Notes: generated by a model from the sequence alone, not told the origin. Positions 338 to 62,560 are shown, counted from the first letter of the stretch. The stretch: DNA of 64,000 nucleotides from Eledone cirrhosa (GCA_964016885.1 OZ024742.1:86056001-86120000), one strand, 5' to 3'. Made by a program: numbers and translations.

Positions 338-414
338 ATTCACCTGATGAGATCAGTGATAATCGATCATGACCACACGATCGATCTATCTCTTATTGAA
401 ACATGTGTCGTAAT
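338..414 (+). ncRNA. Hammerhead ribozyme candidate (type I, long stem II)
   Basis: att(c)ac-CTGATGA(344-350), stem II containing atcgatc/gatcgat, GAAA(398-401)-catgt-GTC-gtaat. Stem I needs one bulge. The downstream sequence matches the 11883-11964 hairpin family. Confidence 0.55.
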
Positions 415-1332
415 TAAAATGATTGGAAATGTATACCATGCCTTCGGATCTTTATTTTGATTTATATATACGCAAATAAATGTATAGATATAGATATGTG
501 TGTGGGGGAGGGGGGGTATGTGTTCTGTTTGCTCGTGGATGAAACATATGTAATATAAATAAAATTAAATCTCATTGTAAAAGTTAGTTTGTTTATAGTT
601 TTCAAATGTAATGCAATTTTCGGAAAAGAAAGCGCTTTCGATTGTTAAAATAATCATTATTTTCAGTCTTTAAATCTCTGTAAATAGAAATAATCTAATA
701 AGAATTGAAATATAATATTTTGCTTTCAGTAAATTTGAAATAGTTGCATCCACTACGGAGCAATAGAAATTCATGACATCTTTTAACGCATATATTGCAT
801 ACAAAGGCACAATCGCACAGAGAAACTCAATAGAATGATATATATATATATATATATATATATATATATATATATATATATATAGTAATGCATTTATCAC
901 AAATGTATATATCCACCACATGAACTGAAACCGAGAGATATATATTCGTATTAAATTGAATGAAATAGAATATTGTGAAAGATTGCTAAGAAAGAAGCAA
1001 TTACAGTTTATTGAGAAACGCTATATTATAATATTCGTGGCTAATTTGAATAATTCAGGGCCTAAGTTATGGGGCTAAACACTATTTGAATGAGCATGAG
1101 GCATATCTATATCAAGAGGCGAGTATTTTCAGACAAAGAAAAACAAAATAATGTAGCATATCGAAATGAAAAACTACACCAAACAAATGTTAATCGTAGC
1201 AAACAATCTATGGCAATAATACGAATATTATATATGGTAATGCGAATCGTGAAAAATGAAATTGGCTCTCCACCACCCTCCGAAATAGGAAAGATTTTGT
1301 ATATGAAACAAATTAAAAAAATCGTAAACGGG

Positions 1333-1402
1333 TCTTCTTCTTCTTCTTCTTCTTCTTCTTCTTCTTCTTCTTCTTCTGCTTCTTCTTCTTCTTCTTCTTC
1401 TT
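1333..1402. repeat. (TTC)n/(GAA)n microsatellite at the 3' end of the R4-like element
   Basis: Directly visible. It produces the poly-K, poly-E and poly-S ORF artefacts. Confidence 0.95.
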
Positions 1403-2977
1403 GACGTATCGGAGGGTTCTTGCTGTTCCCAGCAAGCATGCCTTTTGAAGCGTTCCAAAAAGCGTGAAGGGGCTAATTTTCTTTAACCATCCCTGGAAAC
1501 CTTTTGAGATAGTCCCTAGTGCGCCTATGACAACCGGGATCACTTTGTCTTCATGGCAGTTCCAAATCCTTTTTACCTCCCACTTTAAGTCCTGGTATCG
1601 GTTAATTTTCTCCCTCTCCTTTTCTTGCACTCTCGTGTTGAATGGGCAGGCCATATCCACAATCAGACACGATCTTTTTTCTTTGTCCACAACCACCAGG
1701 TCAGGTCTATTGTGTTCAAGTTTCTTGTCCGTTTGTATCCTAAAATCCCTCAGCACCTTCACCTGATCGTTTTCTATCACCGCCTCTGGCTTATGCTCAT
1801 ACCACTTCTCAGAATGTGGTAAATTGTTTACTTTGCATAGGTGCCAGTGGATCACCCTGCCCATCACATCATGTCTCCAGCCCTTATAGTGAGTCTGGGC
1901 TAGGTGTTTACACTCGGATACAATGTGAGCCACAGTCTCCTCTCTCTCTCCAAAGATCCTGCACAGTGGGCTAGCCTCCTCCTTGTAAATATGTTGTTTC
2001 AACCACTTCGTTTTGAGGGCCTGCTCCTGCGCAGCCATTATCATTCCTTCTGTAGCCTTTTTAAGGTCTCCTCTTTTCAACCAGTTCCATGTCTGTGGAT
2101 CTCTAAATTCAGTTTTCTCAAAGAAGGTATTATGAAAGGATTTTTCCTGAAGGCTGCTCTTTCTCCTTGATGTTATTTCCTCCTTGGACATCCCCTGGCC
2201 TATTGTCCCCTCCTTCAGTACAGTTCTGAGCATTGGCTCCTTACTAACAGTCACGTATTTGTGTAGGTTGTTTTTCTCCATCTGAACACAGTCCTCTATA
2301 CTGATAAGGCCTCTTCCACCTTCAGATCTCCTTAAGTAGAGTCTATCGACATCACTCCTCTTGTGGAACATGTTGTAGATAGTCAATAGCTTCCTAGTCT
2401 TCCTATCCATTTCTTATTGTTCAGCAACATTCCATCTCAGAATTCCTGCACTGTACCTAATAATAGACACAGCTCAGGAATTTACTGCACTTATGGCATT
2501 CCTACTGTTCAGATGTGACTTTAATACGCTCCTTATTCTCCGAATGTATTCAGTTCTTATCAATTCCTTCATTTTTTTGTTCTTGATGTCATCAGCCTCC
2601 AGAACGCCCAAATACTTGTATCCTTCTTCAGAGTCAATTTCCTTTATCATCTCACCTGTTGGTACCTGGATTCCGTTACTTCTGCTCAACTTACCCCTCT
2701 TCATCACCATGACTCCACCCTTACTAATACCAAATTGCATACATATATAATTGCTGAAAATACGGACAGTGTCAACAAGCACATCCAACTCCTTCTCACT
2801 CTTCCCGAAGAGCTTAAGATCGTGCATGAAGAGGAGGTGATTGATGGTAAGCCCTCCCTTTCCCAACCTGTATCCTGCTCTCACTTTTCGCAGTACACTG
2901 GTCAGGGTCATCAGGGAAAGGACAAACAACAGAGAGGACAGACTATCACCCTGGAAGATACCTCTCTTGATCTTCAT
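1403..2977 (-). mobile_element. 5'-truncated R4/Dong-clade non-LTR retrotransposon (RT + CCHC + RLE), disrupted
   Basis: GIFQGDSLS, HLLFMHDLKL (degenerate YxDD), YKYLG, GGRGL, CRIxxxxEETVAHIVSEC, RHD, and RLE motif RPDLVV..IVDMACP..KxxRY in ORFs 2474-2977 and 1313-2410. Confidence 0.9.
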
Positions 2978-3000
2978 TAATATTATTATTATTATTATTA

Positions 3001-59805: not shown

Positions 59806-59850
59806 AGTCACTGAAGAGGTCACAGAGTGTGTGACGAAAGAACTATGACT
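59806..59850 (+). ncRNA. Minimal hammerhead ribozyme, 3' pLTR
   Basis: Identical to 55516-55560. Confidence 0.85.
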
Positions 59851-60257
59851 ATATATATATAAACAACTATCTGGTTGTGGAACCAACCGACCAACCAGAA
59901 ATTTATAAATTTGTAAATTTATAAATATATAATAAGTTAAATTGAAGTGAAAGCAACTGGTGCGTGTGTTTCTTATTGGCAACATGACCCTCCCAAAGTA
60001 TAACAATATATATATATATATATATATATATATATATATATATATATATATATATATATATATAAATAGTTATTCAAAGTTATATATATATATATATATA
60101 TATATATATATATATATATATATTTATATATATATATATATATATATATATATATATATATATATATATATATATATATATATATATATATATATATATA
60201 TATATATATATGTATATATATATATATATATATATATATATATATATATATATATAT

Positions 60258-62416
60258 AACTTTGAATAACTTTGAAATGTTTTGGCCAGTATTGGCCCAG
60301 GCCATGTCTAACTTAATAGCACCACCTGGCGAAGTCTTTCAATTCAGGATTTGGGCACCATGGCCCATTCGAGAAGAGAATTACTGTTTGCGGAGACATA
60401 TCCGGGTGTGGGTGGTTTGTCCGGGATTACTTGGAGGAATTTGTCCAAAGACTTCTTGAATTTTGTGTGGTCAGTTTCTGTTTTGACGTGTCCTGGTGTG
60501 ATGTTGAAGAGAGCAGGGCCGATTGGGGTGAAATAATTGTGCCGTATTGTTGTTATGAGTTGCGATTTAGATTTTTGAATGGGACGGTTAGCACGGGGCC
60601 CAAGCCTTGGGTGTATCTTGAAGGCGATGCCAACATCATTTGGGCAGTGATGATGGAACATTTTCCACATCATGTAGATAATATAACGCTCACGGCGACG
60701 TTGGAGTGAGTAAAGTTTCAGGTTTTCTAATCGACCCCAGTAGTCAAGGTTTGACATGCCATCTATCTTTTTCGTGATTGCCCTTTGAGGAGCTTCAAGT
60801 TTCATGATACTTTGTTTCGTGTGGGGAGACCACAGTGGACAACAGTATTCAAGGTGTGGTCGGGCAAAAGTAGAGAAGAGAAGGATAATGGTGCGGGAAT
60901 CTCTCGACTGGAAGGTTCTGAGGATCCAGGAACACATTCTGCGGGCCATGTCAACTTTGCTGCTTATATGCGTGGTCCAGCTTATGTTGCTGTCCACGGT
61001 TACTCCCAAGTCTCTGATGTTGTTAGATGCCACGAGAGTTTCCCCGGAGGGAAGGGAGTACGGGAGTTTCAGAGCATCCTCTTTTCCAAAGTGGATCAGT
61101 TCGAATTTGTCTTCGTTCAGTAACATGTTGTTCTTTTCTGCCCATTGGGTAACAGCCAGTAGGTCTGACTGAAGGCTTATCCGGTCATCCACGCCATTGA
61201 TGACCTTTTGGAGCTTGGAATCATCAGCGAAAATTTTAATGTTGCTGTGTTTGATGATGTCAGTGATGTCATTAATATAGATGATGAAGAGAAGTGGGCC
61301 CAACACAGTGCCTTGTGGGACCCCACTACTGACTTTGGCTGGGCTTGATTTGACTCCCTCAACTACAACATGTTGGGTTCTGTTTGACAGGAAGCTCTTG
61401 ATCCACTGCAGCAGCTTTCCAGTGACACCAATATTGGACAGCTTTCTCAGTAGAATATTATGATCAACCCTGTCAAAGGCCTTGCTGAAATCAAGGTAGA
61501 TAACATCAGTGTTGGAACCCTCTCCCAAGGCTCTCAAAATGTCATCAAAGTGATGCAGTAGCTGCGTCAGGCAATCCCTTCCATTACGGAATCCATGCTG
61601 GTTGGAGTTCAGCATATTGTTACTCTCAAGGAAGTGGGTCATTCGCAATCTCACCACTCTCTCAAATACCTTAATGATATGAGAGGTGAGTGAGATTGGA
61701 CGGTAATTCACGGCAAGGGAATTGTTTCCCTTTTTGAAAACTGGGACAACAGACTGGGATAGAAGGTTTTCTGGCACATATCCAGCATCCAGTGAGTTCC
61801 GCCACAGATTGGCAAGAGGAGATGCAAGTTGGTGTTGACACGCCTTCAAGACACAAGCAGGGAACCTATCGGGACCTACTGCTGAATTATGCTTGATTTC
61901 CTTTATTGCCGCCAAGACATCAGGGGCGCCAAACGTTATGTCCGATAAGGTGTAATGGGGAGTAACATCGCCGATACAGCCCAGATCGGCCATATCAGGA
62001 TTGCTGAAAACAGAGCAGTATTGTTTCTGCAGTATCTCACCCATGGTTTTAGCATTGTCTTGAAGAGTGCCATTTTCATCAATTAGAGGGCCAACAGTAG
62101 AGCCAGTGATTTTGTGTTTTTTTTGCAAATGAAAAGAACACTTTGGGATTGAGTTTGATCTTCTCAATGGCCCAGGCCTCTTCAGCTCTTCTCTGATTGT
62201 TGATGAGGGACATTATGTTGTTTTGGAGGTTATGTTTTTTAATCTCTAGTGATGAAATGGCAGTCAAGTTGATGTGTTGCTGCTGACAGTATTTCAGCTT
62301 ATTGATTTTTTTGTTCGTTCTCTTAATTTTTCTGATGAGCGTTTTTCTATTTCTAGGGATTCTGCTCTTAGATTTGTTTATAGTTCTTAATGGGGTGTGT
62401 TTAACACATATGTTTG
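60258..62416 (-). mobile_element. 5'-truncated CR1-group LINE with (TTCAAAGTTA)2 tail, in (TA)n
   Basis: RT ORF, short 3' UTR, tandem decamer tail. Confidence 0.9.
60344..62167 (-). CDS. CR1-group LINE reverse transcriptase (ORF2 C-terminal part)
   Basis: [56 protein letters not shown]. The true frame begins near 62120. Confidence 0.92.
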
Positions 62417-62483
62417 TATATATATATATATATATATATATATATATATATATATATATATATATATATATATATATATATAT

Positions 62484-62560
62484 ATATTTCGTTTCTGAAT
62501 TTGTTTAGCAAGATTCTTTATCTTTATTGGCAACATGACCCTCCCAAAGTATAACAATAT
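62484..62560. mobile_element. 77-bp inverted micro-insertion of the 55-60 kb PLE inside (TA)n
   Basis: Reverse complement of 55740-55779 joined to forward 55683-55719. Confidence 0.9.

What the first reader, a model, noticed from the sequence alone, without database searches (positions are those of the whole stretch)
338..62560. Whole-window (TA)n-targeted hammerhead ecosystem: ~29 HHR motifs, ~12 families, most without any ORF
Seen: intact or decayed type-I HHRs at 338, 11653, 12355, 14307, 17615, 18159, 18773, 19255, 21334, 30422, 31460, 32466, 33003, 34032, 34880, 35892, 40027, 41805, 42644, 42915, 43999, 44127, 44626, 44910, 47266, 47713, 53567, 55516 and 59806, nearly all in inserts bounded by (TA)n. 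Known: PLE pLTRs carry HHRs, and non-autonomous HHR repeats (retrozymes) yield circRNAs in animals. Inference: three PLE clades here supply RT and GIY-YIG activity to a diverse community of short ribozyme RNAs that colonise TA microsatellites, at roughly one motif per 2 kb.
Basis: partly seen in the sequence, partly recalled or inferred. Interest (0 to 1): 0.78.

Follow-up and report, generated by a model that had tools for sequence, protein, structure and literature searches.

The report
Hammerhead retroelements swarming TA microsatellites
All 29 listed motifs are hammerhead-ribozyme sequences. They belong to 13 repeat families that end in TA microsatellites: nine are the ends of protein-coding Penelope-like retrotransposons, and four are short protein-free repeats that likely borrow the same enzymes, in a genome estimated to hold about 200,000 hammerheads.

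Summary
All 29 positions are type-I hammerhead (HHR) motifs: 20 keep the core and 9 are decayed. They form 13 families and far exceed shuffled controls (11 perfect cores vs mean 0.06). For 23 of 29, a (TA)5 tract lies within 250 nt 3' of the cleavage site (background 22%).

The interpretation needs correcting. Nine of 13 families (19 motifs) are 3' ends of ORF-bearing Penelope-like elements (PLEs), six of them Hydra-like. Only four (B, D, G, J; 10 motifs) are ORF-less tandem units of 466-849 bp, i.e. retrozyme-like.

The window is about twice the genome average. A 600-kb sample gives 78 intact HHRs per Mb, about 2.3x10^5 genome-wide. Exact counts are 23,802 for B and 5,949 for J.

Inserts end at fixed sites 3' of the cleavage site. 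All 59 fold-back inserts scored pair one short end with one long end, including ORF-less J (11) and G (5). This is direct sequence evidence that retrozymes use PLE integration machinery. Three families carry the known U3-A8 core.

The parts are known; the scale and the strict paired-end rule were not found in print. Cleavage, circular RNA and helper identity are untested.

The parts
1..461 (+). Family I: 3' end of a Hydra-like PLE (extends left of the window); HHR box1 at 344, cleavage after 409, 47-nt helix II
   Evidence: RT+EN upstream in L261, L262
11617..11854 (+). Family A solo pLTR fragment, decayed HHR (GAAA lost)
12150..12501 (-). Family B (ORF-less) truncated unit; intact HHR, cleavage at 12360
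14258..18355 (-). Family A Hydra-like PLE insertion: broken RT-EN frames 15680-17322, HHRs at 14363 and 17671 (minus, intact), inverted 3' copy with decayed HHR at 18167 (plus)
   Evidence: DKT, CxCx5C
18397..19605 (+). Family B tandem array, 2.5 units of 482 bp; intact HHRs at 18780 and 19262
21322..22011 (-). Family E: truncated 3' UTR/pLTR of a 3531-bp Hydra-like PLE; U3-A8 HHR; ends at the short site in (TA)n
30357..30620 (+). Diverged family K copy; U4C core, GAAA decayed
31182..31779 (+). Family B unit; intact HHR at 31466
32260..32760 (-). Family B unit; decayed HHR (cleavage position 32472)
32765..33501 (-). Family J (ORF-less, 593-bp unit), about 1.25 units; U3-A8 HHR, cleavage at 33008; ends at the long site
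33885..35097 (-). Family D (ORF-less, about 845-bp unit), about 1.45 units; two HHRs, each decayed at a different core base
35733..40286 (.). Family C PLE fold-back insertion (RT-EN 3' halves head to head); HHRs at 35931 (minus, U4C) and 40032 (plus)
41797..42352 (-). Family M: PLE 3' end with U3-A8 HHR, cleavage at 41811, (TA)n 15 nt downstream
42394..42804 (.). Family H fold-back insert: one long (+196) and one short (+49) end; HHR box1 at 42647 (plus), 90-nt helix II
42875..43426 (-). Family K 3' end; decayed U4C HHR, cleavage at 42919
43503..44488 (.). Family F fold-back pieces; HHRs at 44101 (minus, decayed) and 44133 (plus, intact; 102-nt helix II)
44626..44789 (+). Diverged family G copy, decayed HHR
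44835..45301 (-). Family G (ORF-less, 468-bp unit); intact HHR box1 at 44985
47254..47495 (+). A-related subfamily solo pLTR; intact core, box1 at 47277 (own ORF link not tested)
47701..48676 (-). Family E 3' UTR/pLTR; U3-A8 HHR box1 at 47801
48728..53688 (+). Family L PLE with broken RT-EN frames 49096-52048 (Cx4CxxC linker); minimal HHR at 53570 with 2-bp helix I
55253..60005 (+). Family C full-length PLE: pLTR, short upstream frame, 1077-codon RT-EN open frame 56275-59508, pLTR; HHRs at 55521 and 59811, 4290 bp apart

Best explanation
The window is a chain of Penelope-like element ends and four ORF-less tandem units inserted into (TA)n tracts, and the ORF-less units are likely copied in trans by the reverse transcriptase and GIY-YIG endonuclease of the ORF-bearing elements. 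Shown by sequence: every family carries a type-I HHR near its 3' end. Inserts end at fixed positions past the cleavage site, just before an element-internal TA, and run into (TA)n. 5' ends are variably truncated, tandem or inverted. Fold-back inserts always have one short and one long end. Inferred: the endonuclease nicks both strands of a (TA)n tract, and each 3' end primes reverse transcription at one of two fixed internal sites of the RNA, probably helped by TA/UA pairing. The two cDNAs join directly or head to head. Because inserts run across the cleavage site, the template must be continuous there: either a ligated circle made by HHR cleavage of tandem transcripts (favoured for the short units, about 60%) or an uncleaved multimer. 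Most window copies are dead truncated ends.
For: Motif excess over shuffles. Helix covariation in homology-collected sets: B has 5 pairs with double changes vs 1.8 shuffled, and A has 43 double-changed cells vs 20; in both, 0 of 500 shuffles reach the observed % paired. ORF links: E is a 3531-bp tandem unit with a 784-codon open RT-EN frame; F (L260, L266) and I (L261, L262); H (L182, L174, L187); K (L225, L269); M (L230, L283). Closed ORF-less units: the tail recurs upstream at 466-482 (B), 593 (J), 467-470 (G) and 841-849 bp (D). No tblastn hit to 8 PLE proteins. 0 of 20 B and 0 of 20 J loci taken in genome order have PLE coding sequence joined upstream. Two fixed 3' junctions per family: E +17/+97, J +75/+242, G +81/+189, H +50/+197, K +46/+178, I +51/+190. 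59 of 59 scored fold-back inserts pair short with long (E 20, J 11, F 8, H 6, I 6, G 5, K 3). This fits the two internal RT start sites shown in vitro for an anole PLE (PMC11167929) and the (TA)n preference of Hydra PLEs (PMC8557442).
Against: No RNA or biochemical data. The helper for B, D, G and J is unidentified; their units share at most one 21-nt match with the ORF-linked ends compared. PMC11167929 found that HHR mutants still insert in vitro, that RT starts were not homologous to the cut DNA, and no reads at the cleavage site, which argues against a required circle. In A, two of five covariation measures did not beat shuffles (286 and 494 of 500). Isolated motifs fold only modestly better than shuffles (z -0.4 to -2.7 for 7 motifs), and several MFE folds miss the HHR junction. 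D and G were judged ORF-less from 30 top-identity loci each plus a few longer stretches, not from an unbiased sample. D gave no fold-back in the automated scan; one hand-picked D pair ended at +151 and +191. B's ends are blurred by internal TA-rich sequence.
Confidence: 0.8

Rival explanations
1. One reading: most families are short ORF-less ribozyme RNAs parasitising three PLE clades.
For: 21 of 29 window motifs lie in inserts with no ORF. B and J alone number 23,802 and 5,949 exact copies. Some ORF-linked families may also have ORF-less subfamilies: three K copies share about 1.1 kb of non-coding upstream sequence that differs from the EN-linked copy L225.
Against: 9 of 13 families join PLE coding sequence at one or more loci. 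Their tails do not recur upstream at a short fixed period (A, C, L and M not included there).
Confidence: 0.1
2. Same elements and enzymes, but the HHR does not make the template. Uncleaved read-through transcripts of tandem copies are reverse-transcribed, and the HHR acts later, weakly, or for its own spread.
For: All inserts span the cleavage site. In vitro, HHR-dead anole PLE RNA still inserts (PMC11167929). Most helices III here are short palindromes that would need dimers, and L has a 2-bp helix I.
Against: Cores and helices are kept with compensatory changes across diverged subfamilies, so the fold is under selection. Tandem units within a J insert are closer (0.0-2.3%, 7 inserts) than between inserts (mean 2.5%), as expected if one monomer is copied repeatedly; this is suggestive only.
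Confidence: 0.35
3. The elements do not target microsatellites; (TA)n tracts grow afterwards from an element-internal TA or a short duplication, by slippage.
For: Each junction lies 0-3 nt before an internal TA of the element. B carries internal TA-rich sequence.
Against: J inserts mostly have (TA)n also at their variable 5' ends (TA-rich left flank in about 17 of 20 by eye). Different families are chained in one tract series (41797-45342). Near-identical young E copies already have long tracts.
Confidence: 0.1
4. The motifs are chance matches in AT-rich repetitive DNA.
For: U3-A8 hits in the random genome sample (3) are at chance level (0-3 per shuffle).
Against: Canonical-core hits: 47 vs 0-1 per shuffle. 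Exact family counts are in the thousands with 0 for the reversed control. Covariation.
Confidence: 0.01

Closest known systems
Hydra-clade Penelope-like elements (Craig et al. 2021, PMC8557442; Hydra-1_Obim is in its supplement)
   Same: C-terminal GIY-YIG; DKT, CxCx5C and R-W motifs; HHR in the pLTR; (TA)n targets; tandem and inverted inserts with a tail at one end.
   Different: At least six families (A, E, F, H, I, K) meet in one 64-kb window. The E unit is 3.5 kb (paper: generally under 3 kb). Tails are about 80-170 nt rather than 30-40. Helix II runs up to about 115 nt. The strict short/long pairing is quantified here.
Animal non-LTR retrozymes (Cervera and de la Pena 2020, PMC7229834; Li et al. 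2026, bioRxiv 10.64898/2026.07.22.740005)
   Same: ORF-less tandem units, each with a type-I HHR, GC 34-42%; monomers to multimers; proposed to depend on PLEs.
   Different: Units of 466-849 bp are longer than the 170-400 nt RNAs studied, though within the preprint's 51-972 bp. They are (TA)n-bounded and show PLE-type two-site tails and inversions, a more direct link than co-occurrence or pLTR similarity. No similarity to a helper pLTR was found. Estimated density is about 78 per Mb vs about 4.5 per Mb for axolotl (126,247 motifs, 28.21 Gb); descriptors differ.
Minimal PLE hammerheads, including the U3-A8 variant of Schistosoma Cercyon (Cervera and de la Pena 2014, PMC4209133)
   Same: Short palindromic helix III, extra base before helix II, U3-A8 covariation.
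   Different: U3-A8 is fixed in three dissimilar families (E, J, M), one of them ORF-less. U4C is kept across diverged K subfamilies.
Anole Poseidon element PAc (Frangieh et al. 2024, PMC11167929)
   Same: Two internal RT start sites downstream of the HHR define the tail; AT-rich targets.
   Different: PAc starts were reported as not homologous to the cut DNA, with no strand difference. Here junctions sit at an internal TA, and the two ends of one fold-back insert always use different sites.

Membership tests
Type-I hammerhead ribozyme | Core boxes CUGANGA, GAAA, UH (or U3-A8 variant) | tested here: met
   20 of 29 window copies keep the core (one with U4C); family cores intact
Type-I hammerhead ribozyme | Helices I-III in type-I order, with covariation | tested here: met
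   B; A; other families not counted; H and L have only 3- and 2-bp helix I
Type-I hammerhead ribozyme | Self-cleavage | not testable with these tools
   needs in vitro transcription
Hydra-clade PLE (A, E, F, H, I, K) | Single RT ORF with C-terminal GIY-YIG | tested here: met
   E 784-codon open frame; broken or partial frames for A, F, I; EN or RT pieces only for H, K
Hydra-clade PLE (A, E, F, H, I, K) | DKT, CxCx5C linker, RWK-like motif, CxxC before the conserved E | tested here: met
   all four in E (RWR) and F; DKT and CxCx5C in A; CxCx5C and CxxC-E in I; only CxxC-E seen in H and K
Hydra-clade PLE (A, E, F, H, I, K) | Placement in the Hydra clade on an RT tree with named references | not tested
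   no labelled references held; homologues carry no clade names
Hydra-clade PLE (A, E, F, H, I, K) | (TA)n insertion preference and HHR in the pLTR | tested here: met
Neptune or Nematis PLE (C, L) | Cx2-5CxxC linker between RT and EN | tested here: met
Neptune or Nematis PLE (C, L) | Clade placement by phylogeny | not tested
   left as zinc-linker PLEs
Animal non-LTR retrozyme (B, D, G, J) | Tandem units, each with a type-I HHR | tested here: met
Animal non-LTR retrozyme (B, D, G, J) | No protein coding; GC below 45-50% | tested here: met
   longest Met-started frame 37-48 aa (112 aa in B), no PLE tblastn hit, GC 0.34-0.42
Animal non-LTR retrozyme (B, D, G, J) | Expressed as linear and circular monomer RNA | not testable with these tools
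   no RNA holder listed for the J stretch; no evidence either way
Animal non-LTR retrozyme (B, D, G, J) | Sequence relationship to a PLE pLTR | tested here: inconclusive
   none found among ten ORF-linked ends from eight families; the genome holds many more families (19 clusters in 47 sampled motifs)

The most novel reading that the evidence does not exclude
This genome carries the densest known load of self-cleaving ribozymes in an animal: about 2x10^5 intact hammerheads from dozens of families. The invariant short/long end pairing, shared by coding and ORF-less families, records an obligatory two-primer PLE integration step on circular RNA templates. In that step each strand of a nicked (TA)n tract primes at its own fixed RNA site, and retrozymes with no sequence kinship to their helper are recognised by structure alone.
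Probability: 0.35. Interest if true: 0.7.

Novelty: new variant of a known kind. Interest (0 to 1): 0.5.

Why it matters
How PLEs integrate, and whether animal retrozymes are moved by PLE enzymes, are open questions; published support is co-occurrence, pLTR phylogeny and one in vitro system. Here an apparently young autonomous family (E: 99%-identical copies, open 784-codon frame) and young ORF-less families (J, G) share a strict, countable end signature. That gives a matched enzyme, candidate passenger RNAs, a defined target and predicted priming positions for a direct test. The estimated load also suggests that these elements shape much of this genome's microsatellite-rich spacer DNA.

Tried and rejected
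Rfam gave no hammerhead family among the 150 of 202 matches shown; they were almost all TA-repeat-driven miRNA models.

My first descriptor was too strict and found only 2-4 motifs. Pfam gave only RVT_1, and no GIY-YIG model matched, on 18 frames.

I first rejected 41805 as spurious and reversed this after seeing its homologues. I first read the E and J cores as decayed; they are fixed U3-A8 variants (30 of 30 E loci; J 5,949 exact U3-A8 vs 0 C3-G8 with the same flanks).

An apparent D-to-endonuclease link (L096) was adjacency to another family's 3' UTR. A 6.4-kb gap between G motifs (L270) is a nested LTR retrotransposon, not a G ORF.

The within- vs between-insert identity test is inconclusive: overlapping loci were not fully removed (L044/L045, L063/L064, L164/L165, L144/L159, L009-L012), and G and B show few shared private variants.

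Sequencing runs: no RNA holder listed; no reads were laid. The homologue search of the E protein gave 646 relatives but no clade names. The earlier-findings look-up was empty.

The palindromes at 28484-28918 and 30998-31179 gave no HHR in the window or in homologues.
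Full report
Setting. The window is G000:C3:86056001-86120000 of a 3.0-Gb genome. It is 37% G+C, has about 1.5 (TA)5 tracts per kb, and is mostly transposon debris. The organism looks like an octopod cephalopod to me, from a recalled SINE resemblance at 27850-28263; no call tested this.

Observation. A type-I hammerhead descriptor found 11 perfect-core motifs vs mean 0.06 in 100 block shuffles. A version allowing U3-A8 and U4C cores found 13 vs mean 0.16 in 50 shuffles. 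Self-BLAST, reading of the sequence and genome copies assign all 29 listed positions to 13 families: A (5 motifs), B (5), C (4), D, E, F, G, K (2 each), and H, I, J, L, M (1 each). For nine families I pulled genome loci (12 for B, 30 each for D-K), and each majority sequence folds as a type-I HHR. These loci are the best matches to the window copy, so they are biased to close relatives. Twenty window copies keep the core and nine are decayed. Homology-collected alignments show compensatory changes in B (19 sequences) and A (39 sequences); two of five measures in A did not beat shuffles. B also has an extended helix I with a bulge and an ANA-type loop 2, resembling canonical schistosome-type motifs (recalled).

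Core variants. E (30 of 30 loci), J and M use U3-A8. J has 5,949 exact U3-A8 matches and 0 with C3-G8 in the same flanks. K keeps U4C across diverged subfamilies. U3-A8 is already described for Schistosoma Cercyon PLEs (PMC4209133).

(TA)n. For 23 of 29 motifs, (TA)5 lies within 250 nt 3' of the cleavage site, vs 21.8% background; in the genome sample the figure is 44 of 47 vs 13.5%. Copies leave the family sequence at fixed points just before an internal TA and enter (TA)n: E 14 at +17 and 9 at +97 of 29; J 12 near +75 and 12 near +242 of 29; G 12 near +81 and 13 near +189 of 29; H 19 near +50 and 9 near +197 of 29. K and I behave alike. For D and F my queries favoured long ends.

ORF links. 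A, C and L have RT-EN frames in the window. E is the end of a 3531-bp tandem unit with an open 784-codon RT-GIY-YIG frame; 17 of 30 loci, some overlapping, show its endonuclease 1190 nt upstream of the cleavage site. F, I, H, K and M each join PLE coding sequence at two or more loci: directly for F, I, H and M, and once directly and once inverted for K. A, E, F and I show Hydra-clade motifs, H and K only endonuclease pieces similar to E, and C and L a Cx4CxxC linker. No labelled tree was built.

ORF-less families. B, D, G and J are closed units whose tail recurs upstream at 466-482, 841-849, 467-470 and 593 bp. They lack PLE coding similarity. For B and J, 0 of 20 loci each were joined to PLE coding sequence; these were taken in genome order from the first 100 listed matches, favouring singletons and pairs. 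So 9 of 13 families (19 of 29 motifs) are PLE ends and 4 of 13 (10 motifs) are retrozyme-like. No helper was identified.

Scale. Sixty 10-kb stretches spaced along 18 large contigs (smaller contigs unsampled) held 47 canonical-core motifs, vs 0-1 in each of 10 shuffles. That is 78 per Mb (bootstrap 48-113), or about 2.3x10^5 genome-wide (1.4-3.4x10^5), in 19 sequence clusters. The window has 172 per Mb, about 2.2 times the mean. B alone has 23,802 exact matches, with 0 for the control. Published counts are 126,247 in axolotl, over 6,000 in Acropora and about 5,000 in Mytilus (PMC7229834), and about 9,000 in Xenopus (PMC4209133). My descriptor allows long helix II, so the comparison is not like for like.

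Mechanism. I took every fetched locus with two outward-facing HHRs of one family, no (TA)8 between them and both ends in (TA)4 within 270 nt. All 59 of 59 pair one short with one long end (E 20, J 11, F 8, H 6, I 6, G 5, K 3, D 0). The cut-offs were set from the bimodal distributions; inserts failing these filters were not counted. A one-sided tail is known (PMC8557442), and two internal RT starts were shown in vitro (PMC11167929). I infer that the two nicked strands of a (TA)n tract prime at the two sites in one event, and that J and G use this machinery. Inserts span the cleavage site, so the template is a ligated circle or an uncleaved multimer. Circles are shown for other retrozymes (PMC7229834) and were proposed for PLEs (PMC4209133), but HHR-dead anole RNA still inserts in vitro (PMC11167929). 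My within-insert identity test leans to monomer copying for J only. No RNA data were available.

Papers seen. bioRxiv 10.64898/2026.07.22.740005: parts 1-3 of 5, abstract to discussion; its supplements are closed and may list further species. PMC4209133: parts 1-2 of 4. PMC8557442: passages, section 11 and supplement rows. PMC7229834: passages. PMC11167929: passages and part 2 of the main text. Eight searches showed no paper on cephalopod HHR load, (TA)n-targeted retrozymes or strict short/long pairing. I judged these from listings, and the library lacks most subscription papers.

Verdict. It is worth attention for its scale and for the paired-end rule shared by coding and ORF-less families.

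Noticed in passing
window 11183-11281 (+): An isolated family E tail that starts at about the HHR cleavage site and ends at the long (+97) junction in (TA)n. Similar E tail pieces occur in many unrelated loci.
   Followed up: partly
L133:3256-5610: Family E's open frame runs stop-to-stop from just before the HHR cleavage site, so the long RT start site lies in frame upstream of the first Met.
   Followed up: no
window 55856-56305 and 56275-59508: Family C has a 149-codon frame overlapping the start of the 1077-codon frame, a possible frameshift arrangement; the long frame contains an Asn/Thr/His-rich repeat.
   Followed up: no
window 28484-28918 and 30998-31179: Fold-back or tail-to-tail palindromes beside (TA)n with no HHR found; possibly tails of other PLE families.
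   Followed up: partly
window 27850-28263, 54555-54757, 63536-63726: An approximately 200-bp dispersed repeat (tandem pair at 27850) resembling an octopus SINE from recall; no HHR found by the descriptors.
   Followed up: no
window 1313-6802 (-): Two broken non-LTR retrotransposon copies next to a (TCT)n tract, with RT and a C-terminal region that looks like a restriction-like endonuclease (recalled R4/Dong-like); not PLEs.
   Followed up: no
window 60344-62212 (-) and 45302-47206 (-): LINE (CR1/L2-like by recall) with a 622-codon open RT frame and a decayed second copy; both end at a (TA)n tract.
   Followed up: no
window 32765-32908 and 33359-33502: The 144-bp direct repeat is the overlap of the 1.25-unit J insert, i.e. 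a pLTR-like duplication in an ORF-less element.
   Followed up: yes
window 53540-53690: Family L's HHR is close to shark Penelope terminal sequences as recalled; not checked by any search.
   Followed up: no
L270:1546-7456: A Gypsy-like LTR retrotransposon with 98.5% identical LTRs nested inside a three-unit family G array.
   Followed up: partly
L288, L301, L305, L309, L327: An abundant HHR family absent from the window, with 101-116-nt helix II (5 of 47 sampled motifs).
   Followed up: no
window 11886-12090, 20311-20392, 40575-40818: HHR-less tail fragments between TA tracts: I-like at 11886, G at 40575, and a short C-related piece at 20311. More PLE insertions are present than HHR counting shows.
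   Followed up: partly
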